The notes below the pieces were generated by a model. It worked only from the letters and a program-made list of their open reading frames with translations, searched no databases and had not been told where the DNA came from. A stretch of DNA of 64,000 nt from Escherichia coli phage AZ21: the sequence record LC788708.1. One strand, written 5' to 3'. Position numbers and translations under genes: made by a program. Below are positions 4,946-39,554 of this stretch, piece after piece (the stretch's first letter is position 1; every line of letters starts with the position of its first letter).

Positions 4946-5799
4946 TGGATCAGTATATCGAAGTTGGAAAACGCATTCTATCAGATGGTCAGTGGGTAAC
5001 GAATCCTAGAACAGGGGTTCGTTGCCTCACTATTATTGATGCAGACTTTACTTTTAACGTAGGTGCAGGGGAATTTCCCCTTATTACTACTCGTAAGGCG
5101 TTTGCAAAACAAGCAATAATGGAAATGATTGGGTATCTACGTGGATATGACTCAGCAGCACAATTCCGTGCTATTGGTGTTAACACATGGAATGCTAATG
5201 CAAATGAAAACTCAGCTTGGCTAGACAATCCATACCGTAAAGGTGAGGATGATATGGGACGAGTCTATGGTGTTCAAGGACGTCAGTGGACTAATTCCGA
5301 TGGTCTTATGTTTGACCAACTAGCCAAGATTTATCATAATCTGAAAAGGGGCATTGATGATCGTGGGGAAATTCTAACCTTCTGGAATCCGGGAGAGTTC
5401 TCAAAGGGTTGCTTACGTCCATGTATGCACACTCATCAGTTCTCTATTTTGGGAGATACATTATACCTGAACTCTTTCCAGAGATCTAATGACTTCCTGT
5501 TAGGCCAAGTATTTAACATGGTTCAGTGCTATACGCTTCTAGCATTAATGGCTCAGATTACAGGCCTTAAACCAGGAATTGCACGCCAGAAGATTATCAA
5601 TCTTCATATCTATGAGGATCAGTATAATGTTTTGATGGAGCATAAGCAATTCGATCGTAAACCTTTTGCACCTCCTACTCTAGAAATTAATCCAAATATC
5701 CGAACTCTGGAGGATGTATTGACCTGGGTAAATAAGGATGATTTTACTGTTCGTGGTTACGAACACCACCCTGCTATTGCATACCCCTTTACGGTATAA
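4945..5799 (+). CDS. thyA: thymidylate synthase
   Basis: 284 aa. [10 protein letters not shown] (catalytic Cys) and [13 protein letters not shown] motifs. Confidence 0.92.
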
Positions 5800-5802
5800 T
5801 AT

Positions 5803-6156
5803 ATGTTGACAATACTATTATTTGTTATATTCTTCCTGAAACATTTTATGGCTGATTATCCCCTCCAAACTCCATACATGTTAAGGAAGACCCACAAAAT
5901 AGGGTGGAAACTTCCATTACTAACCCATTCTCTAGTACATGCTGGACTAACCTTTATAATTCTTACTATGTTCACATCACTAGGAATGGCTATAACTTTA
6001 GCTATAATGGAATTAATTCTACACTTTATCATAGATTACTGGAAAGCACAATGCTGTAAATACGATATAAGTGATTCCAGGTTTTGGATAGCTTTAGGAT
6101 TTGATCAGTTACTCCATTACTTAACCTATGCTCTCATAATTTTAATTATAATTTAG
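5803..6156 (+). CDS. small integral membrane protein (117 aa)
   Basis: At least 3 hydrophobic helices. Starts directly after thyA. Confidence 0.6.
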   Translation: MLTILLFVIFFLKHFMADYPLQTPYMLRKTHKIGWKLPLLTHSLVHAGLTFIILTMFTSLGMAITLAIMELILHFIIDYWKAQCCKYDISDSRFWIALGFDQLLHYLTYALIILIII

Positions 6157-6161
6157 CTCAA

Positions 6162-6190
6162 ATAGCCCTTCGGGGCTATTATATTTAAAT
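6162..6190 (+). terminator. hairpin terminator
   Basis: ATAGCCC-ttcg-GGGCTAT followed by an AT-rich tail. Confidence 0.5.
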
Positions 6191-6195
6191 TTCAT

Positions 6196-6224
6196 TTGCT
6201 TATTTAGTGAAATTTAAATATAAT
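6196..6224 (+). promoter_or_regulatory. T5 early-type promoter
   Basis: TTGCTT, 17 nt, TATAAT, with a downstream TATAAATTGGAGG box. Confidence 0.7.
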
Positions 6225-6250
6225 ATATTTTATAAATTGGAGGTACACAT

Positions 6251-6508
6251 ATGGGACTCTTTAGAAAGAAAGTTTATTTAACAGAAGAGCAAGAACACAA
6301 ACTTCTTACTCTATCAGAATACTATCATTTACCATATGATTATTTTGTAGATAGAGCAATAGAGGAATTCTTAGATAGAGAATTAGAGGCTATAAAACCT
6401 AAGCCTCCTGAGCCGTCTTTAGCATCAAAGGGTCACCAAAGAGAATCCCCAAGAGTTCCGCCAATGCCCCCAATTCCACCAAAAACTAGAGTTGTAACAG
6501 AGTTGTAA
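6251..6508 (+). CDS. hypothetical early protein (85 aa, Pro-rich C-terminus)
   Basis: GGAGG RBS and its own promoter. Confidence 0.6.
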   Translation: MGLFRKKVYLTEEQEHKLLTLSEYYHLPYDYFVDRAIEEFLDRELEAIKPKPPEPSLASKGHQRESPRVPPMPPIPPKTRVVTEL

Positions 6509-8544: not shown

Positions 8545-9246
8545 ATGAAAGTAAAACCATTTGGTATGCTAGATATTGAATCTCTAGGAACTCCAGGAGA
8601 TTGTGGTACTACCCATATCGCAATGCCTTCATTCGCTTTTGTGGCTATGCATGGAATTGATAAAGACCCTGATCTAGTATTTGTTACTTTAGATGTACAA
8701 GATCAACTTAATTCTGGTGCCAAAGTTACAGCATCTACTCTAGCATTCTGGATGGATCAGGCTAAACATAGCCCGTCTGCTATCCACATTATGGAAGCTA
8801 TGAATGAGCGTAATCCAAAACTGGTTGCCTTCCAAAATGGTAAACATCATTGCACTAATAAACTTGGCTCTAACCATGCTGCCTTCTCTATGGCTCAAAA
8901 TATTATGGAGTTGGCTCTAGGCGAAAATGCTTTGTATTATGGCAATGGCCCAGAGTTTGATATGACTATCTACTCTGCAAACACTTTCCATGCTGGAACC
9001 AATGAAGAAATAGTTCCGTGGAAATTCTGGAACTTGGGTAATGTTAGATCTCTTCGTAATCTCTGGATGCAAACTGGCTATAGTTATAAAGCTCTAGAAA
9101 CCGAAGGTATTAGCTGGGCAATAGCTAAAATGGAGAAGATGGACACCATTCGTTATGGGATCTATCCGGTTAAGCACGACCCAGCATTCGATGCCCTAGT
9201 TGAGAGCTATTGTGTTGCAGCTATGATCGAAAAAATGAAAATTTGA
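8545..9246 (+). CDS. DEDDh-type 3'-5' exonuclease (Rv2179c-like fold suspected)
   Basis: N-terminal MLDIESLGTPG (Exo I) and C-terminal KHDPAFDAL (Exo III H-x4-D). Confidence 0.6.
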   Translation: MKVKPFGMLDIESLGTPGDCGTTHIAMPSFAFVAMHGIDKDPDLVFVTLDVQDQLNSGAKVTASTLAFWMDQAKHSPSAIHIMEAMNERNPKLVAFQNGKHHCTNKLGSNHAAFSMAQNIMELALGENALYYGNGPEFDMTIYSANTFHAGTNEEIVPWKFWNLGNVRSLRNLWMQTGYSYKALETEGISWAIAKMEKMDTIRYGIYPVKHDPAFDALVESYCVAAMIEKMKI

Positions 9247-9247
9247 T

Positions 9248-9276
9248 TTGCTTCCGGCTCCAAAATTCTGTATAAT
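9248..9276 (+). promoter_or_regulatory. T5 early-type promoter
   Basis: TTGCTT, 17 nt, TATAAT, CATAAATTTGAG box. Confidence 0.75.
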
Positions 9277-9316
9277 ATATTCATAAATTTGAGAAAACAA
9301 TAAAAGGAAAACAAAT

Positions 9317-9499
9317 ATGCCAGTATCTAAAAATGTTCGTAAAAATGGTAAGAAAGCTACTCGTAATCTGGGTATCCGTCGTATGGCTGAACGTCAATCA
9401 GGTATCCAGAAAATCTTTGATCTGCTAAATCGTGCTAATCCTAAAATTGATAACAGTAACGATACTGTTCTGCGCACCCTGCTGGCAATTGGTCTGTAA
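9317..9499 (+). CDS. small basic protein (60 aa)
   Basis: AAGGAA RBS and its own promoter. Highly basic N-terminus. Confidence 0.55.
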   Translation: MPVSKNVRKNGKKATRNLGIRRMAERQSGIQKIFDLLNRANPKIDNSNDTVLRTLLAIGL

Positions 9500-9552
9500 T
9501 AGACCAAATTTAAACAAATTCAAATCTCAAACTTCATATAAGGAAGCAAATA

Positions 9553-10191
9553 ATGACTACTCGTATCTCTAAAACTCGCGCTCTGGCAACTATCAAATCT
9601 CTGGAAGCTAAAATCCGTAAAGCTACTGAACAACAGCTTCTGATCGCTGTTGGTGAAGGTAAGGATAAAAACCAGGTTGTAGTTGGCGCTGCAATCGAAG
9701 TAGATGCCCTGTCTACTCGTATTAAAACTGATTTCCAATCTCTGCTGGATATGATGTCTCAGCGTGATCGTATTAAATCTGCTCTGATTAAGAGCAATGC
9801 AGAAACAATCGTTGAGATTGGTTCTCGTAAGATGACTGTTGCGGAAGCAATTGAAGCTAAGCGTTCTATGGAGCTTAAAGCTCAGCTGCTGGCTAACATG
9901 CGTAAGCAGTTCCATGCCGCTACGATTAAGTTTAATACGCAGAAAGCACAGTTTGATGCTAAATATGAGCGTTTGCAGGATAGCATGGCTACCCGCGATA
10001 AGAAAACTTCCGAAGATGAAGTTAAAATGCAGCTCAATCTGCTGGAACTCAAGAATACTCCATTCTTGATTGATCCGCTGGAACTGGAGAAGCTGATTAA
10101 GCAGCATGACGAGGAATACCAGGACTTTGCAACAAATGTTGACTTTGTTCTATCCGAGTCTAACGCCTCTACCTTCATTGAAGTAGAGTAA
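9553..10191 (+). CDS. coiled-coil early protein (212 aa)
   Basis: AAGGAA RBS. Strongly host-optimal-looking codons. Three overlapping track ORFs are treated as shadows. Confidence 0.7.
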   Translation: MTTRISKTRALATIKSLEAKIRKATEQQLLIAVGEGKDKNQVVVGAAIEVDALSTRIKTDFQSLLDMMSQRDRIKSALIKSNAETIVEIGSRKMTVAEAIEAKRSMELKAQLLANMRKQFHAATIKFNTQKAQFDAKYERLQDSMATRDKKTSEDEVKMQLNLLELKNTPFLIDPLELEKLIKQHDEEYQDFATNVDFVLSESNASTFIEVE

Positions 10192-10202
10192 TAATTTAAA
10201 AG

Positions 10203-10553
10203 CTAGTAAATCGGTAGACGAAAGCCCAAGCATCTTACCTCGCAGCAGCGGTTGAAATACGAGGTTAAATAAGACCGCTGACCATACTATAAAGTATAAT
10301 CTATTGGAGATTATGTTTATTACACCAGCCTCTTAAGCTGACACGTAAGAACAAAGCGTCGTTGATATTACCGACACAACTTCAAAGATCAACATTTAAG
10401 TATGAAAGCTGAAAAGTTTAAAGAACTCAAACTTCTAAACTTCTAAAGCTAAAAGATGCAAAGTATTCGTTGATGATTCAAACCCTAGATCAAAGGTACA
10501 TGGCTCATAAGATATGGCCTGTGGCGCCTCTAGGCTGTTTATCGGTTTACTAG
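10203..10553 (+). ncRNA. candidate structured non-coding region
   Basis: ORF-free. A 17-bp closing helix pairs 10203-10219 with 10537-10553 (G-U pairs allowed). An internal interleaved CCTCG/GCGGT/CGAGG/ACCGC pattern suggests a pseudoknot. Confidence 0.3.
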
Positions 10554-10574
10554 TTTCACAATTTAAAAATGTAT

Positions 10575-10603
10575 TTGCTAATTTACTAAGTTATCTGTAT
10601 AAT
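10575..10603 (+). promoter_or_regulatory. T5 early-type promoter
   Basis: TTGCTA, 17 nt, TATAAT. Confidence 0.75.
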
Positions 10604-10633
10604 ATATTTTTAAATTGATGAAACGAGGCTATT

Positions 10634-10951
10634 ATGACTTTTCATATTTTGATTGATGATGTGCGTAATCTTCACGGAATGGACATTATCATTCGAACCC
10701 CAGAAGCCGCTGTAGAGTTTCTGAATAAAACTGATACCACAGGCCACTTCGTTTATATGGATAATGACTTGGCTGTAGATGGTATGGAAGGTTATCAAAT
10801 TCTTCGTTTACTCTTAGAATTTGGGCAGAGACCAAAGAAAGTGGTACTAGTAACCTCAAACCCAGTAGCTAAGCAAAATATGCGTAATGATTTGCTTGAC
10901 TTAGGGTATAAAGAAAATCCCAATCGTGTTGAATATGATTGGCAGGAGTAA
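10634..10951 (+). CDS. receiver(REC)-like domain protein (possibly cREC family)
   Basis: 105 aa. N-terminal HILIDDVR and a later VYMDNDL pattern resemble receiver-fold proteins. Confidence 0.45.
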   Translation: MTFHILIDDVRNLHGMDIIIRTPEAAVEFLNKTDTTGHFVYMDNDLAVDGMEGYQILRLLLEFGQRPKKVVLVTSNPVAKQNMRNDLLDLGYKENPNRVEYDWQE

Positions 10952-34138: not shown

Positions 34139-34876
34139 TCGGATTCGCACATGCTCTAGGGCAGTTTTTCATCTACTATAAATATCCTAGGCCGGTTTTC
34201 CTATACAGGGCGGTTATGGGGAGGGCGGTTATTTCTAGACAATAAAATTTACTCTTGTCAGTCCAGAAATTACTGTCGGATTTGCACATTGTGTTTCTAG
34301 AAATTTATGGTCGGATTTGCACAATTGCCTAAGTTTTTAGGAACATATAATCTCCTGAAAATGGCAGCATTATTTCGGGCCGAAGGCCCATGATTGCCTG
34401 AGTTTTTTTAGAGACACAGAAATTTTCACTTGTCAAGCTATTTTGCCCCATTTTGCTAATAAAATTTTACTTTATCTCCCCTAATCTCAAATTAACCCAA
34501 ATCTTCTCAACTCTTCTCCAAAATCCCCGCAAATCAGGTGCTCCGCACCAAACATGCGCCCCTCCCGTAGTTCCCCCAAGTTTCTCTCGATCTCTCAACT
34601 TCTCCCCAAACTCATACAATCACACACCCTCCAATCGAAGTCACAAAAATCTTGTCGGATTCGCACAAATAAACCCATGTCGGATTTGCACATATTCTAG
34701 TTAATTCCACAGGATTGATGCGCAGCATCGGATTGCTGGAGTTTTTGGGAGAATTCATTGTCGGATTCGCACACTATAAAAATTTTTCGGGTCGGATTTG
34801 CACACTACCAAAAATTGTCGGATTCGCACATACACGCCCACGCGTAATCCATGGGGGCAAATGTCGGATTTGCACA
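34139..34876 (+). repeat. array of nine direct 14-bp iterons GTCGGATT(T/C)GCACA
   Basis: Copies start at 34139 (lacks the first G), 34275, 34310, 34654, 34679, 34760, 34791, 34817 and 34863. All share one orientation. Confidence 0.9.
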
Positions 34877-34881
34877 AAAGC

Positions 34882-34899
34882 GCAGGGCAATTGCCCTGC
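34882..34899. repeat. perfect 18-bp palindrome GCAGGGCAATTGCCCTGC
   Basis: Read directly from the sequence. Confidence 0.9.
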
Positions 34900-34904
34900 T
34901 TGCC

Positions 34905-35100
34905 TGAATGCGAATGATAATGAGAATCATTTGCATTTAAAAAGCGGAATGAGAATGATAATAATTCGCATTTAAGAATGGAAGTGAGAATTATTCAGGA
35001 AGTGAAACGATTCTCATTTAAAAAGTGAAACGATTCTCATTTAGAAAGTGAAACGCGAATGATAATGATTCGTATTTAAGAATGGAAGTGAGAAACACTA
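34905..35100. promoter_or_regulatory. cluster of Fur-box-like imperfect palindromes and short tandem repeats
   Basis: 19-mers at 34916-34934 and 34951-34969 match GATAATGATAATCATTATC at 16/19 and 15/19 by hand. A 23-bp unit AGTGAAACGATTCTCATTTAAAA is tandem at 35001 and 35024. A ~40-bp direct repeat lies at 34947-34990 and 35054-35094. Confidence 0.6.
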
Positions 35101-35281
35101 TTATTTAAGTTATCCACAGACTTATCAACAGCACGATTTGACTTGACAGAATCCTAGCCATTTTGAGGCGTTATCAACAGACTTATCAACAGCTTATCCT
35201 ACTGTATAAATATACAGTATTCCTATGCAGTGAATAATTCTAATATACAGCTAAAACGCTCTCAAACGCATTCTAACGCGT
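35086..35281. repeat. left arm of a ~200-bp imperfect inverted repeat carrying DnaA-type boxes
   Basis: TTATCCACA at 35110. TTATCAACA at 35122, 35171 and 35183. Aligns with the reverse complement of 39128-39330. Confidence 0.85.
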
Positions 35282-35413
35282 TTAATTTTGGTGGGGATAC
35301 TAAAACAAGGGCAAAATTGGAGGAGGCTTGAAAATTAGTTAGCTCGCTAATGATCACACACGGCGACACGTAACACCCTAACCATTAGCAGGCTAACCAT
35401 CGCGGGCGTGGTC

Positions 35414-35434
35414 AAATGAGAATGATTCTCATTT
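35414..35434. repeat. perfect 21-bp palindrome AAATGAGAAT-G-ATTCTCATTT (Fur-box-like core)
   Basis: Read directly. The TGAGAATGATTCTCA core differs from TGATAATNATTATCA at one symmetric position pair. Confidence 0.85.
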
Positions 35435-35475
35435 GTGGATTGGGGGCGCTTCCTGATAGTTGCGCCCCGTGATTA

Positions 35476-35589
35476 TTATAGTAGGGGGCAACCGTTACGC
35501 TTTGCCCACTCCCGCCACTCATCTTGGTGCCTAGACTTGCGACGGCGTACTAAAAACCGCTTGTACCAGTGATTAAACCATCGTTTCAT
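35476..35589 (-). CDS. possible 37-aa basic Trp-rich peptide, last gene of the leftward cassette
   Basis: ATGA overlap with the upstream gene's stop. MKRWFNHWYKRFLVRRRK... Below the track cutoff. Confidence 0.35.
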   Translation of the reverse strand: MKRWFNHWYKRFLVRRRKSRHQDEWREWAKRNGCPLL

Positions 35590-35789
35590 AAATCCTCCTC
35601 CGGTAGTCGATGCGTGATCTTTTCCTCCTCCCCATAGGAATCCACCAAATACTGATAATAACCATCGTGATCATAAATCACTTTATCATATTCCCCACGC
35701 TCGACCGCTTGCCGATTTTCCAACGTATCAGGCACAAAGAAAGTATCAACGGTAACAGTAGTTTTAGTTACAACAATTTTATCACTCAT
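35586..35789 (-). CDS. pre-early-region hypothetical protein (67 aa)
   Basis: Co-directional cassette. AGGGG RBS region. Confidence 0.55.
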   Translation of the reverse strand: MSDKIVVTKTTVTVDTFFVPDTLENRQAVERGEYDKVIYDHDGYYQYLVDSYGEEEKITHRLPEEDL

Positions 35790-35809
35790 AATGCCATCGC
35801 CCCTAGAAT

Positions 35810-35828
35810 GAGAATGATTATCAATATC
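35810..35828. promoter_or_regulatory. Fur-box-like 19-mer GAGAATGATTATCAATATC
   Basis: 16/19 to the Fur consensus by hand. Lies in the intergenic gap of the leftward cassette. Confidence 0.45.
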
Positions 35829-35915
35829 ATTGTGAAGCCATTACCAAATCGTAAACGCTGGGAATGTTTCCCAGCGGTATTATTAGACTTATGGCTTTGT
35901 GTTTTTCGCCACCAG

Positions 35916-36116
35916 CTATTCACGGTAGACGCTCCATCCGTCTAGCTTCCATTCTTCCCCCTTGCGAATATTGAAAAACCAATCATTAAAATTGTAACCA
36001 TCTTCTGACATGATCACGCCGTTTTCTTTCATGTACAAAAATTCATCACTAGTAAAATATTGATTACTAACTTTAAAACCTTGTTTCATTTTTTCTAGTG
36101 CTTCATCTTTAGTCAT
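35916..36116 (-). CDS. small protein (66 aa) with DUF2829/Tad2-like N-terminal pattern (tentative)
   Basis: MTKDEALEKMKQGFKV... and a Trp-rich C-terminal part. ATGA coupling to the upstream gene. Confidence 0.55.
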   Translation of the reverse strand: MTKDEALEKMKQGFKVSNQYFTSDEFLYMKENGVIMSEDGYNFNDWFFNIRKGEEWKLDGWSVYRE

Positions 36117-36457
36117 TGCGCCACCTTTCGAAACGCTGTTTCAATACTATCCGCAGTGGATTGAATATATGCGCCTTTGAGTATCAGCCGCTCGGTGCAT
36201 ATCTTGCGAAAAATATTAATAAAATCGTCCTCATTTTCTGCGATTAATGCCTCACCCATAACCTGAACGTCGCAAGATGCAAAGGTCAAAAATTGAAACG
36301 CTAGTTCACGGGCAACGACCGCATTGATTTTATAATGCGCCTTGCCTTCATAGATATTAATAACGCCCTTATAAGCTGGCGAAAGCTGATTTAAGTAGTT
36401 TGCTAATAATGCCGGACGGCAATTAGCAACAAAACGATTGCCCTCATAAATAACCAT
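36113..36457 (-). CDS. hypothetical protein (114 aa)
   Basis: Co-directional cassette. Confidence 0.6.
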   Translation of the reverse strand: MVIYEGNRFVANCRPALLANYLNQLSPAYKGVINIYEGKAHYKINAVVARELAFQFLTFASCDVQVMGEALIAENEDDFINIFRKICTERLILKGAYIQSTADSIETAFRKVAQ

Positions 36458-36584
36458 TTGATAGTCTCCCGATTAGATAGCCAGATAATAACATAAAGAT
36501 CCCCAATAAAAGAGGATCATTCTTAAATAAGGTGGCGGTAAAACCGCCAACCATTGCAAGGAGAATAACAATAATGCTTTTCAT
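36444..36584 (-). CDS. possible 46-aa 2-TM peptide
   Basis: ATGA overlap with the upstream stop. MKSIIVILLAMVGGFTATLF...LLLGIFMLLSGYLIG. Below the track cutoff. Confidence 0.45.
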   Translation of the reverse strand: MKSIIVILLAMVGGFTATLFKNDPLLLGIFMLLSGYLIGRLSNGYL

Positions 36585-36793
36585 AGTACCCCACGAAACG
36601 CAGCGTAAAAGGTGGCAAAGTGTTTAACTGTTTCAGCAATCACGTTGCCGCGCTTATCAAATTTCTTTTCTGTAACACGAAAGGCATTTTTATTACGTGC
36701 TACATATTCGATTTTACAATCTTCCCGCTCGAACGTGTTAACATCCACCAGCTTAAAGCCTTTCGAACGTGCAAGAGAAACGTTGCGGATCAT
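36581..36793 (-). CDS. hypothetical basic protein (70 aa)
   Basis: AGGGGA RBS. Confidence 0.55.
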   Translation of the reverse strand: MIRNVSLARSKGFKLVDVNTFEREDCKIEYVARNKNAFRVTEKKFDKRGNVIAETVKHFATFYAAFRGVL

Positions 36794-36795
36794 TT

Positions 36796-36978
36796 TTATT
36801 CCCCTTTACTAGTCATGCAGCCCAGCAGATAAGAAAATACAGCGATGCCAGCACCAATAGTAACCATTGGTTTTATATTTACTAAACCGCAATAGGAATC
36901 CTGAATACCATAAGCGGTGGCGAAAAGAGTCAAAATAGCGCCCAAGATACCCGCTAAAATAGCTCGAAAAATAACCAT
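36796..36978 (-). CDS. 2-TM membrane protein (60 aa)
   Basis: GAGGAG RBS. Two hydrophobic helices. Confidence 0.55.
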   Translation of the reverse strand: MVIFRAILAGILGAILTLFATAYGIQDSYCGLVNIKPMVTIGAGIAVFSYLLGCMTSKGE

Positions 36979-37027
36979 TTGTAATACTCCTCTAGTTAGT
37001 GGGGCGAAAGTAACGCCCCGTTATTAA

Positions 37028-37258
37028 TTACATTAAAATAATTTTTGCCGCTTGTTTTTTGGTACAGTGTTCCGCTTTCAGGGTGTCCAGCAAAAAGCCC
37101 GCCGTTTGCTGATCGATTTTATCGGCATTATATAGTTCTTGGATGGTGTTATAAGTTTTAGCAATGCCGTATTCTTGTACCATTTCTTGAATAATCCAGC
37201 GATTTGATACCCAGCCTTTACCAGTGAAAAGAGCGTCAGAAGAAGAGTAAGCAACCAT
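37028..37258 (-). CDS. hypothetical protein (76 aa)
   Basis: ATG 37258 after a GGAGG RBS. The track start at 37291 lacks an RBS. Confidence 0.55.
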   Translation of the reverse strand: MVAYSSSDALFTGKGWVSNRWIIQEMVQEYGIAKTYNTIQELYNADKIDQQTAGFLLDTLKAEHCTKKQAAKIILM

Positions 37259-37321
37259 TTTAAGCCTCCAAATTTTTGGGAAAATTTTCAACCGTCCTCA
37301 AACGGTGTAAAGGCATTATAA

Positions 37322-37348
37322 CAAAAAAGGCCGCCATAAAAGGCGACC
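37322..37348 (-). terminator. rho-independent terminator (minus strand)
   Basis: GGTCGCC-ttttat-GGCGGCC followed by TTTTTT on the minus strand. Confidence 0.65.
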
Positions 37349-37364
37349 TTTACAAAACTTTACA

Positions 37365-37859
37365 TTAAACTACTTGTAAGGATTCAATATTGAAACATCG
37401 TTTCAGTTCGTCATGCAAAACGGCATATTCATCCCATCGGGTACTATCAGGAATATAAACAAGCTGTTTTAATCGGTTTGCATATATTACCGCTTTGTTA
37501 TCAATTATCTCGACGCCACCATATTTAATAATTAATTTCATGACGGAATTAATAGGATCGCCGCCGTTTACATATGCGCCGGATTTACTTAATTGATAAT
37601 GATAAAGGCTTGCATATACGTTTTCATTTTCATACCATTCGCCAGTCTCTTCGTCTTCATAGCCATCGCTACCAAAACGAGAAGCATTATCAACAGCCAT
37701 TTCATGAGCAAAAGCGTCCAGATCCGTACCAGCAGGAACAAAATATTCCTCGGTATTCCCTTCCCCGCAATAGCCAGTATGACAATCGACTAAAATGATC
37801 ATATCATGTTTAGCCTTGCTCACTTCCCCTAGCGAGAAGCCGTATTTTTCTTCTAACAT
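37365..37859 (-). CDS. hypothetical acidic protein (164 aa)
   Basis: ATG 37859 after AGGAGACTAATT. Confidence 0.65.
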   Translation of the reverse strand: MLEEKYGFSLGEVSKAKHDMIILVDCHTGYCGEGNTEEYFVPAGTDLDAFAHEMAVDNASRFGSDGYEDEETGEWYENENVYASLYHYQLSKSGAYVNGGDPINSVMKLIIKYGGVEIIDNKAVIYANRLKQLVYIPDSTRWDEYAVLHDELKRCFNIESLQVV

Positions 37860-37923
37860 AATTAGTCTCCTATTAATTAACAAGGAAATAGTAAAGCGGG
37901 GAAATAATCCCCGCTAGATATTA

Positions 37924-38157
37924 TTACTCGTTTTCGGTGTTAGTGGTAAAAGTAGAGATATCGATACCTTTTACCATTTCATCGATCATCTCAGCGATGT
38001 TAAAACTTTGCACCATTTCTAACATTGCCGCTTCCATAGCCGCCCCTGCTACCGCTTTCGCTTTCTGATTAGTCGGGGCGTACTGGTCAACCGCTACACT
38101 CAGCAGGTTAGCGATCACTACACGACCAATCGGCGTATCAATATAGCCTTTGATCAT
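37924..38157 (-). CDS. 77-aa ORF, probably the C-terminal part of the upstream gene
   Basis: Open in the +1 frame relative to 38138-38929. No RBS of its own. Confidence 0.5.
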   Translation of the reverse strand: MIKGYIDTPIGRVVIANLLSVAVDQYAPTNQKAKAVAGAAMEAAMLEMVQSFNIAEMIDEMVKGIDISTFTTNTENE

Positions 38158-38929
38158 AAACGGTGCTTTTTTTAGCCGCTACTTTCGTGATTTGAGTTAG
38201 TGCAATTTTACCAGCTTCCAGTTTTGCAGCGTTTACAACAGCGGATTTATTAGCGGCAACGATATTAGCGATCTTGGTCATGGTATTTTTTCCTTTGTTT
38301 TCAGTAGTTTGAGTATTAACGCTTTGAGTGTTAGAGCTTACAACCTGTTTTTCAATATTGTCAACTGGTTTTAGTGTAAATCCAGCATTTGCAACGTTTG
38401 ATTCATTCCCATACTCTAAATAATCACTAGGGATCAACATGTTGCCACTAGCGCGTTCAAAACATAACACGCCAGTTGTAGAAATTACATTACTATCAGC
38501 ACTTTTGTAATTAGCTGATAGTTCACGCCAAATGCTAGTTAATAACGATCCGACACTATCAGTCCTGATATTACTTACTTTTGTTGCTGTTACTTGCTCT
38601 TTTTCTTGCACGTTATATAATCGCGCAATGTAACCACTATTAGATTCACTATAACCAACAATGATAAAATCAATATCTCTTCCACGTTGATTGCGGAAAA
38701 TGTGATAATCACGGTTGAAAATTACTAGCGCCCTTTTCTGGTCTAGTAATTGTGTGAAATCTTCAACTGAATAATGAGTACCCTCATCGTCTAAAATTCT
38801 ATCATGAATCTTTTCGATAATAGTAGCGGTATGCTGTACGCTTGCCGCGCTACTACCCTCTAACAGATTGCGCAAACTGCCTTTAATAATAGTGGCGTTT
38901 GCTGGTACTGCAATTCTTACAGTAGACAT
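38138..38929 (-). CDS. first gene of the leftward cassette (263 aa as written)
   Basis: GGGAG RBS. Ends 27 nt after an A7 run at 38167-38173. Confidence 0.65.
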   Translation of the reverse strand: MSTVRIAVPANATIIKGSLRNLLEGSSAASVQHTATIIEKIHDRILDDEGTHYSVEDFTQLLDQKRALVIFNRDYHIFRNQRGRDIDFIIVGYSESNSGYIARLYNVQEKEQVTATKVSNIRTDSVGSLLTSIWRELSANYKSADSNVISTTGVLCFERASGNMLIPSDYLEYGNESNVANAGFTLKPVDNIEKQVVSSNTQSVNTQTTENKGKNTMTKIANIVAANKSAVVNAAKLEAGKIALTQITKVAAKKSTVYDQRLY

Positions 38930-38961: not shown

Positions 38962-38991
38962 AATGATAAGGGTAATTTTCTAGCATAGGCA
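38962..38991 (-). promoter_or_regulatory. candidate promoter of the leftward cassette
   Basis: On the minus strand: A-tract, TTGCCT, 18 nt, TATCAT. Confidence 0.4.
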
Positions 38992-39127
38992 AATATTATT
39001 TTACTTTTTTATTTTCCTTGCCTAGCGTCTAATTTTATGCTAACCGCGCAGCGGTGCAATAAAGAGCAAACCACGGCGAAGCCACCAGCCCGACGCATTG
39101 AGGCTTTACTTTAATATTACCTTACAG

Positions 39128-39330: not shown

Positions 39331-39554
39331 GGCTAATGATTTCTTATAGTTATTATTTCTCATTAATTTATAAGTATATTATATATTATCAAATAGTTAG
39401 TTGGCTAATGAGATTTTCCGTGATTAATAGTCTGCTAATAATTCAGGTCGTTACAATCCACCAGCATGATTATCATTCTAGCAATTATTAGTCTGCTATC
39501 TTTCCGATACATACTAACAAATAAAAGTCAATTAATTTATTTCATAAAATAAGT

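What the first reader, a model, noticed from the sequence alone, without database searches (positions are those of the whole stretch)
35916..36116. A 66-aa pre-early-region protein resembles DUF2829/Tad2-type small proteins (possible anti-defence sponge)
- **Resemblance:** the N-terminus MTKDEALEKMKQGFKV and the aromatic/Trp-rich remainder (NDWFFN..EEWKLDGWSVY) recall the F.EAL.A.K.GKKV..W...W pattern of DUF2829 proteins. One subgroup, Tad2, sequesters Thoeris signalling nucleotides.
- **Context:** genes delivered on first-step-transfer DNA are the logical place for counter-defence functions.
- **Limit:** the resemblance is by eye only, and the protein is shorter than typical family members.
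Basis: inference. Interest (0 to 1): 0.5.

Follow-up and report, generated by a model that had tools for sequence, protein, structure and literature searches.

The report
Minimal Tad2-fold protein, altered pocket
A 66-residue gene on the first DNA a T5-like phage injects has the fold of the Tad2 family, which soaks up bacterial immune signals, but it lacks the residues Tad2 uses to hold those signals, so it is a plausible but untested counter-defence protein with an unknown target.

Summary
The ORF (window 35916-36116, minus strand, 66 aa) is real. The window is E. coli phage AZ23, a Tequintavirus. Synteny with T5 places the gene in the first-step-transfer DNA, about 8.9-9.1 kb from the left end. 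It occupies a hypervariable slot that replaces T5.016.

The protein scores 17.8 bits against PF11195, below the cutoff of 25. Two relatives pass, one of them 49% identical to it.

The residues Tad2 uses to bind gcADPR are absent. The S-x-T-D motif occurs in 0 of 113 family members against 62 of 63 Tad2. W-N-G occurs in 1 of 113 against 63 of 63. The family has its own invariant set (E25, E38, G40, F21, W61).

Verdict: an unannotated, widespread, minimal Tad2-fold clade with a re-tooled pocket. A sponge role is plausible but not shown, and canonical Thoeris-signal binding is unlikely.

The parts
35916..36116 (-). 66-aa gene encoding a minimal Tad2-fold protein (PHROG 3474; BEU76020.1, annotated hypothetical).
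36121..36127 (-). Shine-Dalgarno AAGGTGG, 4 nt upstream of the ATG.
   Evidence: Read directly from the sequence.
36113..36457 (-). Upstream neighbour, the T5.015 ortholog (114 aa, PHROG 4379, function unknown). Its TGA overlaps the ATG of the 66-aa gene (ATGA), implying translational coupling.
   Evidence: tblastn gives 92% identity to T5.015. PHROG.
35793..36112 (.). Cassette that replaces T5 coordinates 8645-8950 (gene T5.016). It carries most of the 66-aa gene and the start of a 45-aa ORF. This is a hypervariable slot among T5-like phages.
   Evidence: blastn breakpoints against T5. T5.016 translation is unrelated. Slot survey of 36 IMG/VR loci. Stokescottia and EH7 slots.
35786..35923 (-). 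Unannotated 45-aa ORF (GTG start) with a basic N-terminal half and a hydrophobic C-terminal tail. It overlaps the end of the 66-aa gene by 8 nt and the start of the T5.017-like gene by 4 nt.
   Evidence: Conserved with amino-acid changes in 6 IMG/VR loci, both with and without the 66-aa gene. No Pfam or PHROG hit.
35586..35789 (-). Downstream neighbour, the T5.017 ortholog (67 aa, PHROG 6973). It is the last gene before the injection stop signal region.
   Evidence: tblastn 82% identity. PHROG. T5 annotation.
38963..39024 (-). Two sigma-70-like promoter matches at the position equivalent to T5's annotated promoter (T5 6411-6489) for the rightward pre-early operon. This is the inferred transcription start for the operon that contains the gene.
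   Evidence: Promoter scan. Coordinates mapped through the blastn segment T5 6018-6486 = window 39439-38940. T5 annotation. Inferred, not demonstrated.
34480..35600 (.). Non-coding region homologous to the T5 injection stop signal (T5 9140-10149). It marks the inner limit of the first-step-transfer DNA. Coordinates are approximate.
   Evidence: blastn segments T5 8951-9279 = window 35792-35465 and T5 9317-10659 = window 35311-33977. T5 iss annotation.

Best explanation
The gene encodes a minimal (66 aa) member of the Tad2-like (DUF2829) fold superfamily. It belongs to a large, unannotated clade of proteins of about 60-70 aa found in many virulent enterobacterial phages.

In this T5-like phage it is an accessory cassette in a hypervariable slot of the first-step-transfer DNA, translationally coupled to the T5.015 ortholog. 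It would therefore be made in the first minutes of infection, before the rest of the genome enters.

Most likely mechanism (inferred): like Tad2, it assembles into a homo-oligomer and binds a small molecule at the edge of the sheet formed by the beta1-beta2 loop and the beta3-beta4 turn, blunting a host response. The pocket chemistry has been replaced. The Tad2 residues that contact phosphate and ribose are gone, and a different invariant set (E25, E38, G40, F21, W61, plus H18 in most relatives) lies on the same edge. The ligand is therefore probably not gcADPR bound in the canonical way, and it is unknown.

Shown: the ORF, its location, the fold, the remote homology, the loss of canonical motifs, the family-specific conservation, and the accessory character. 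Inferred: oligomerisation, ligand binding and an anti-defence role.
For: Fold:
- Foldseek against the PDB ranks SPO1 Tad2 first, probability 0.94.
- BFVD neighbours beyond the protein's own family are repeatedly annotated DUF2829 or Thoeris anti-defense 2-like, including a 63-aa DUF2829 protein at 32% identity (E 6e-5, TM 0.74-0.77).
- The fold is reproduced with a shallow and a deep alignment (pLDDT 94.4 and 97.1).

Homology:
- hhalign of the family profile against a Tad2 profile gives 91% probability, E 1e-6.
- 23 of 113 relatives hit PF11195 at E<=0.01, and no other family recurs.
- Two relatives pass the 25-bit cutoff: P0062 at 26.5 bits and P0035 at 25.9 bits. P0035 is 49% identical to the query.

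Pocket location:
- The family's near-invariant residues are H18, F21, E25, E38, D39 and G40. They lie at the end of beta1, in the beta1-beta2 loop, at the start of beta2 and in the beta3-beta4 turn (secondary structure).
- These are the same elements that line the Tad2 pocket according to 10.1101/2023.05.01.538930.

Ligand plasticity of the fold: different Tad2 homologs bind 3'cADPR, His-ADPR, N7-cADPR, cyclic dinucleotides and cUMP/cCMP (PMC12393519; 10.1101/2023.11.15.567273).

Context:
- The gene is on FST DNA.
- The slot has at least 7 alternative states.
- T5 genes 011-017 are dispensable in the laboratory, and gene 016 is present in under 15% of Demerecviridae (10.64898/2026.04.02.716235).
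- Relatives in other phages also sit in arrays of small early or accessory genes.
- The protein is small, acidic and 19.7% aromatic.
Against: - There is no functional evidence of any kind.
- The canonical ligand motifs are absent: S-x-T-D in 0 of 113 family members and W-N-G in 1 of 113. The segment aligned to Tad2 S76-D79 is variable and deleted in 23-29% of the family.
- Sequence homology is only detectable over the N-terminal 33-35 residues.
- The broad family profile does not retrieve any Tad2 chain from the PDB by sequence.
- The protein lacks the beta2-beta3 insertion with helix alpha2. That element contributes to dimerisation in SPO1 Tad2 and to the second (CDN/cUMP) pocket in HgmTad2 and MoTad2.
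- No fusion to a known sponge domain was found among 20 longer relatives.
- No known anti-defence gene lies next to it here or in three other phages.
- The invariant residues are acidic, whereas described sponges have positively charged pockets (10.1101/2025.07.12.664507).
- Oligomeric state could not be predicted with these tools.
- The pocket-location argument rests on topology, not on a superposition of coordinates.
Confidence: 0.42

Rival explanations
1. It is a functional, canonical Tad2: a tetrameric sponge that sequesters Thoeris signals (3'cADPR/gcADPR or His-ADPR) in the same pocket as SPO1 Tad2 or ModTad2.
For: The fold and remote homology are those of Tad2. The aromatic scaffold positions are kept: F21 for W25, W/F48 for W73 and W61 for W85. 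It is small, phage-encoded and expressed early.
Against: N26, G27, K28, S76, Q77 and D79 are 100% conserved, and T78 98%, in 63 Tad2 proteins, and none has a counterpart here. Mutating the equivalent W21/N22 or S90/T92/D93 in HgmTad2 markedly reduces gcADPR binding, and about 99% of Tad2 proteins keep this site (10.1101/2023.11.15.567273). The aligned segment is deleted in about a quarter of this family.
Confidence: 0.1
2. The Tad2 fold is reused here as a protein-binding or host-takeover module, for example an inhibitor of a host enzyme or defence protein, and not as a small-molecule sponge.
For: The canonical ligand residues are lost. The surface is acidic and aromatic-rich, with invariant glutamates. 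Other T5 pre-early proteins act directly on host proteins or DNA; the T5 Ung-dependent nickase is two genes upstream. Several T5 pre-early genes perturb host physiology. Relatives carry varied C-terminal extensions of unknown function.
Against: Every characterised member of this fold is a small-molecule sponge. The family's conserved polar residues cluster on the sheet edge that forms the Tad2 pocket and are not spread over a surface. The family occurs in phages of many hosts, which argues against a single rapidly co-evolving protein target.
Confidence: 0.25
3. It binds a nucleoside or nucleotide for phage metabolism, not for defence evasion. For example, it could buffer products of the massive host-DNA breakdown that T5 pre-early genes (A1, dmp) cause.
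For: It shares the FST DNA with A1 and dmp. The composition, rich in aromatic and acidic residues, would suit binding of a base and a ribose.
Against: The gene is accessory. About 70 of some 450 matching phage records carry it at 80% identity or more. T5 itself lacks it yet carries out the same DNA degradation. Relatives occur in phages that have no T5-type two-step injection or dmp pathway.
Confidence: 0.08
4. The resemblance is convergent or a chance similarity of a small alpha+beta fold, and the protein is unrelated to DUF2829.
For: Its own Pfam score is below threshold. The PDB sequence hits are marginal (E 0.06) and disappear with the broad profile. The C-terminal half shows no sequence similarity.
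Confidence: 0.03

Closest known systems
SPO1 Tad2 (gp34.65; PDB 8SME/8SMF/8SMG, 8WJE), the founding DUF2829 anti-Thoeris sponge
   Same: Both have an N-terminal helix with an E-A-L-x-x-[LM]-K-x-G-x-[KQ]-V motif, followed by an antiparallel sheet and a C-terminal W-x-[IV]-[VY] strand. SPO1 Tad2 is the top PDB hit by sequence and by Foldseek. Both are small, acidic phage proteins.
   Different: The window protein is 23 residues shorter and has no beta2-beta3 insertion or alpha2. W25-N26-G-K becomes Y-F-T-S. The S76-Q-T-D79 helix motif is absent. Its invariant residues are different (E25, E38, G40).
ModTad2 (PDB 9EIB; His-ADPR and cUMP sponge) and HgmTad2/AcrIIA7 (PDB 8KBI; gcADPR plus cyclic-dinucleotide sponge)
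   Different: Both keep the canonical pocket, and both have a long insertion that builds a second pocket. The window protein has neither the canonical polar residues nor the insertion.
Short genuine DUF2829 proteins of 72-73 aa (for example P0285 and P0296)
   Same: They are of similar length and also lack the beta2-beta3 insertion, so being short is compatible with family membership.
   Different: They retain GWNGKN and SQTDVLAEDW intact. The window family does not.
T5.016 and other occupants of the T5.015|T5.017 slot in Demerecviridae
   Same: They occupy the same genomic position on FST DNA and have the same accessory, dispensable character.
   Different: Their sequences are unrelated. Only the AZ23-type (66 aa) and EH7-type (61 aa, 45% identical) occupants belong to the Tad2-fold family.

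Membership tests
Pfam PF11195 (DUF2829 / Thoeris anti-defense 2-like domain) | Score at or above the curated gathering threshold (25 bits) | tested here: not met
   The protein scores 17.8 bits, E 0.005, covering residues 1-52. Of 113 relatives, 23 hit at E<=0.01. Of the 10 most Tad2-like of these scored individually, two pass the threshold: P0062 at 26.5 bits and P0035 at 25.9 bits. P0035 is 49% identical to the query.
Pfam PF11195 (DUF2829 / Thoeris anti-defense 2-like domain) | Homology detectable by profile-profile comparison with genuine members | tested here: met
   hhalign of the family profile (A2) against 63 PF11195-annotated Tad2 proteins (A3) gives probability 91.1%, E 1e-6. The confident part covers only residues 1-33.
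Tad2 fold | N-terminal helix packed on an antiparallel beta-sheet, with a C-terminal helix and strand, superposable on solved Tad2 structures | tested here: met
Tad2 signal sponge (functional class) | W-N(-G-K) in the beta1-beta2 loop, contacting the ligand (SPO1 W25/N26; HgmTad2 W21/N22) | tested here: not met
   The aromatic residue is kept as F21 (94% of the family), but N/G/K are absent. W-N-G is present in 1 of 113 family members against 63 of 63 Tad2.
Tad2 signal sponge (functional class) | S-x-T-D motif at the start of helix alpha3 (SPO1 S76/T78/D79; HgmTad2 S90/T92/D93) | tested here: not met
   S.TD occurs in 0 of 113 family members against 62 of 63 Tad2. The aligned segment (positions 50-53) is variable and gapped in 23-29% of the family. 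The alignment of this half has low confidence.
Tad2 signal sponge (functional class) | Homotetramer (dimer of V-shaped dimers) with pockets at protomer interfaces | not testable with these tools
   Only single-chain prediction was available and no coordinates were returned. The alpha2 element of the SPO1 dimer interface is missing.
Tad2 signal sponge (functional class) | Binds and sequesters a nucleotide-derived immune signal and rescues phage from the cognate system | not testable with these tools
   This needs biochemistry and infection assays. No published test of this family was found.
T5 pre-early (first-step-transfer) genes | Located in the terminal repeat, to the left of the injection stop signal, within a pre-early operon | tested here: met
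   T5 position 1 corresponds to window 44976. The gene lies at the equivalent of T5 coordinates 8.65-8.95 kb, between the T5.015 and T5.017 orthologs and before the iss homolog. Promoter-like sites sit at the position of the T5 operon promoter. Expression timing was not measured.
T5 pre-early (first-step-transfer) genes | Orthology to a T5 pre-early gene | tested here: not met
   It replaces T5.016, whose product is unrelated. T5 itself has no homolog in its terminal-repeat region: no T5 pre-early protein, including T5.016, corresponds to this gene.

The most novel reading that the evidence does not exclude
This is the first-noticed representative of a large, unannotated clade of minimal Tad2-fold sponges (582 clusters at 50% identity). 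Their re-engineered pocket, acidic and aromatic (E25/E38/F21/W61), would capture an immune or stress signal that no known Tad2 binds, possibly a messenger not yet described. T5-like phages would deploy it pre-emptively from first-step-transfer DNA.
Probability: 0.3. Interest if true: 0.7.

Novelty: new variant of a known kind. Interest (0 to 1): 0.48.

Why it matters
Sponge proteins have been used as molecular bait to discover new bacterial immune messengers. His-ADPR was identified by pulling it out of lysates with ModTad2. A widespread Tad2-fold clade with a replaced pocket is a ready-made probe for a ligand that current Tad2 proteins do not see. It occurs in T5-like, T4-like, Felix-O1-like and Phapecoctavirus coliphages. 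It would also give a first function to one of the many unexplained accessory genes on T5-type first-step-transfer DNA. If instead it does not bind a small molecule, it would show that the Tad2 fold has been put to a different use.

Tried and rejected
1. PDB sequence search with the broad family profile. Tad2 was not retrieved, and the top hits (C3larvin, FlaI) were chance-level. Only the narrow profile placed Tad2 first, at E 0.06.
2. Guilt by fusion. 20 longer relatives were scanned with Pfam, and none is fused to Acb4, Sequestin, Tad1, Acb2 or any other informative domain. Sub-threshold DnaJ zinc-finger and SEC-C hits were the only extras.
3. NCBIfam has no relevant model.
4. The supplementary tables of the 84-sponge study (PMC12393519) are not held, so I could not check whether this clade was in their Tad2 set.
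5. The AFDB50 fold library was not available.
6. Genomic context in Merlin, Schickermooser and SUSP1 showed only arrays of hypothetical small genes.
7. The local operon neighbours are all of unknown function except the Ung-dependent nickase.
8. Long repetitive surface proteins among the representative hits (P0050, P0067, P0084, P0085, P0132, P0179) match only the short EDGYxFxxWF stretch through their G-Y-x-F-x-G-W-F repeats. I judged them spurious.
9. No model coordinates are exposed, so no direct superposition or pocket geometry could be computed.
10. I considered and rejected the idea that T5.016 is a diverged homolog. Its sequence is unrelated.

Full report
**Observation**

A Shine-Dalgarno AAGGTGG sits 4 nt upstream of the start. 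The ATG overlaps the TGA of the preceding 114-aa gene as ATGA, which is a typical translational-coupling arrangement. The window segment tested (35000-37500) is 100% identical to Escherichia coli phage AZ23 (LC788707, Tequintavirus, Demerecviridae), where the ORF is annotated only as a hypothetical protein.

**Genomic setting**

blastn and tblastn against the first 12 kb of T5 (NC_005859) show that the window carries the T5 left terminal repeat in reverse orientation, with T5 position 1 at window 44976. Orthologs of dmp, A1, A2 and T5.011-T5.015 and T5.017 are all present.

T5 coordinates 8645-8950 (gene T5.016) are replaced by window 35793-36112, which carries the 66-aa gene. The flanking genes are conserved: T5.015-like at 92% and T5.017-like at 82% amino-acid identity. 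T5.016 itself is unrelated in sequence. The gene therefore lies about 8.9-9.1 kb from the left terminus, immediately before the homolog of the injection stop signal. This is inside the DNA delivered in the first transfer step. Promoter-like sites occur at the position of T5's annotated promoter for this rightward operon. Expression timing itself was not measured.

A survey of 36 IMG/VR loci, anchored on the T5.015 ortholog, shows that the slot is hypervariable. Its states are:
- empty;
- a 71-aa protein;
- either of two different small membrane proteins of about 52 aa;
- an 87-aa protein;
- T5.016, intact or truncated;
- a 45-aa ORF alone;
- the 66-aa gene (3 loci).

Salmonella phage EH7 carries a 61-aa member of the same family, 45% identical, in the same slot. 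A recent T5 study reports that genes 011-017 are dispensable in the laboratory and that 016 is among the rarest pre-early genes, present in under 15% of Demerecviridae. Its authors note that such genes may matter in hosts with other defence systems (10.64898/2026.04.02.716235).

**Is it DUF2829/Tad2-like?**

By sequence, the signal is weak but points consistently to one family.
- PF11195 (Tad2-like) is the only Pfam hit, at E 0.005 and 17.8 bits, below the 25-bit gathering cutoff.
- PHROG 3474 (unknown function) matches at E 4e-29.
- A profile of 19 close homologs ranks SPO1 Gp34.65, which is Tad2, first in the PDB at E 0.06.
- A full HMMER scan of 1.84 billion representatives finds 582 related clusters at E<=1e-3, mostly proteins of 60-75 aa.
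- Of 113 of these, 23 hit PF11195 at E<=0.01, and no other Pfam family recurs.
- Two pass the cutoff: P0062 at 26.5 bits and P0035 at 25.9 bits. P0035 is 49% identical to the window protein.
- A profile-profile comparison against 63 genuine PF11195-annotated relatives of SPO1 Tad2 gives 91% probability and E 1e-6. The confident part covers only residues 1-33, from helix alpha1 to strand beta2.
- An HMM built from the Tad2 proteins behaves the same way.

By structure, the answer is clear.
- AlphaFold2 gives pLDDT 94.4 with the shallow alignment and 97.1 with the deep one, with identical secondary structure.
- Foldseek against the PDB ranks SPO1 Tad2 first (probability 0.94, TM 0.58), with nothing else above probability 0.15.
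- In BFVD, the neighbours beyond the protein's own uncharacterized relatives are repeatedly labelled DUF2829 or Thoeris anti-defense 2-like. One is a 63-aa DUF2829 protein at 32% identity (E 6e-5).

The short length is explained. The roughly 23 missing residues correspond to the variable beta2-beta3 insertion, which genuine 72-73-aa Tad2 proteins also lack. I conclude that the protein is a true, peripheral member of the Tad2-fold superfamily. Its clade straddles the curated Pfam boundary and is unannotated in public sources: 0 of 66 profile hits carry a Pfam domain or a name.

**Does it keep the Tad2 ligand site?**

It does not. In SPO1 Tad2, 1''-3' gcADPR is held by W25, N26, W73 and D79, with T78, I63 and T65. 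Water-mediated contacts involve D67, H71 and S76 (10.1101/2023.05.01.538930). In HgmTad2, the W21A/N22A and S90A/T92A/D93A mutations markedly reduce binding, and the site is reported as conserved in about 99% of Tad2 proteins (10.1101/2023.11.15.567273).

In my set of 63 Tad2 proteins, R22, W25, N26, G27, K28, M30, S76, Q77, D79, L81, D84 and W85 are invariant. The 113-member family of the window protein differs as follows:
- The scaffold positions are shared: A6/A10, G13/G17, F21/W25, W48/W73 and W61/W85.
- W-N-G occurs in 1 of 113 members, and S-x-T-D in 0 of 113. The Tad2 set has 63 of 63 and 62 of 63.
- The segment aligned to S76-D79 is variable and is deleted in 23-29% of members.
- The family has its own near-invariant residues: E25 (100%), W61 (97%), E38 (96%), A6 and G13 (95%), F21 (94%), G40 (90%) and H18 (88%). 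The AZ23 subgroup has N at position 18.

By topology, H18, F21, E25 and E38-D39-G40 lie at the end of beta1, in the beta1-beta2 loop, at the start of beta2 and in the beta3-beta4 turn. All of these are on the same sheet edge that lines the Tad2 pocket. This is an inference. No coordinates were available for a superposition, and the alignment of the C-terminal half has low confidence.

**Mechanism**

The best-supported reading is a small Tad2-fold binder, produced at the pre-early stage, that keeps the position of the pocket but has changed its chemistry. It probably acts as a sponge for a ligand other than canonically bound gcADPR.

Three things support this indirectly:
- The fold shows documented ligand plasticity. 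Different homologs bind 3'cADPR, His-ADPR, N7-cADPR, cyclic dinucleotides and cUMP/cCMP.
- The gene is accessory and sits in a hypervariable cassette slot.
- The protein is small, acidic and 19.7% aromatic.

Several things count against it:
- There are no functional data at all.
- The alpha2 insertion, which contributes to oligomerisation and to the second pocket in characterised Tad2 proteins, is missing.
- No fusion to a known sponge domain was found.
- The neighbours are uninformative.
- The invariant residues are acidic, whereas known sponges have positively charged pockets.

I put the re-tooled-sponge reading at about 0.4, a protein-targeting reuse of the fold at about 0.25, canonical Thoeris-signal binding at about 0.1, a metabolic nucleotide-binding role at about 0.08, and non-homology at about 0.03.

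**Novelty and verdict**

Tad2-like proteins in phages are well known, so the fold assignment alone is not surprising. What is new is that a large, widespread clade is unannotated, has a minimal form of the fold and has replaced the canonical signal-binding residues. One search found it in 442 phage records, including T5-like, T4-like, Suspvirus and Phapecoctavirus phages. In T5-like phages it sits in a variable slot of first-step-transfer DNA. I could not establish whether the clade was already counted among the about 7,500 HHpred-defined Tad2 homologs of PMC12393519. I classify it as a new variant of a known kind, of moderate interest: a concrete, testable lead rather than a demonstrated anti-defence protein.

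Noticed in passing
window 35786-35923 (-): An unannotated 45-aa ORF (GTG start; MNSWWRKTQSHKSNNTAGKHSQRLRFGNGFTMILIIILILGAMAL) with a basic N-terminal half and a hydrophobic C-terminal tail. It overlaps the 66-aa gene by 8 nt and the T5.017-like gene by 4 nt. It is conserved with amino-acid substitutions in six IMG/VR T5-like loci, both with and without the 66-aa gene. It has no Pfam or PHROG match and is not annotated in LC788707.
   Followed up: partly
window 36444-36584 (-): A 46-aa hydrophobic, probably membrane ORF (PHROG 19184, E 1.9e-28) lies in an insertion of about 115 bp between the T5.014 and T5.015 orthologs. It is absent from T5 and not annotated in the AZ23 record, but it is annotated in phage Stokescottia.
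   Followed up: partly
window 37924-38929 (-): The ortholog of T5.011 (DUF7566, 336 aa; reported as toxic in E. coli) is split here into two overlapping ORFs. One is 263 aa (38138-38929, matching profile positions 1-257) and the other is 77 aa (37924-38157, matching profile positions 260-336). The N-terminal part is only 48% identical to T5.011, while the C-terminal part is 96% identical.
   Followed up: partly
window 37365-37883 (-): A 172-aa acidic ORF (PHROG 6741, unknown function, no Pfam hit) occupies an insertion of about 550 bp relative to T5, between the T5.011 and T5.012 orthologs. Terminator-like hairpins flank it at 37895-37915 and 37326-37351. This is a second variable slot on the FST DNA.
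   Followed up: no
window 39440-39526: The homing endonuclease gene hegG (T5.010) is absent. T5 coordinates 5420-6017 are replaced by about 87 bp here, and tblastn finds no hegG hit in the window.
   Followed up: no
window 34924-35217 (iss-homologous region): This region contains short repeats. T5 6098-6228, near the divergent pre-early promoters, also matches window 35087-35217 at 76% identity. T5 9534-9600 and 9638-9697 each match a second site in the window (34990-34924 and 35094-35035). Together these indicate repeated elements in the injection-stop region.
   Followed up: no
P0052 (331 aa, metagenomic relative): This protein contains three tandem copies of the mini Tad2-fold domain in a single polypeptide. 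That hints that the domain works as a multimer. Other relatives carry uncharacterised C-terminal extensions, or an N-terminal DnaJ-type zinc-finger-like segment in P0046.
   Followed up: partly
P0050, P0067, P0084, P0085, P0132, P0179: Long repetitive surface proteins score against the family profile only through the stretch S-E-D-G-Y-N-F-N-D-W-F, which resembles their repeated G-Y-x-F-x-G-W-F-T units. I judged this a short-motif coincidence and not homology.
   Followed up: partly
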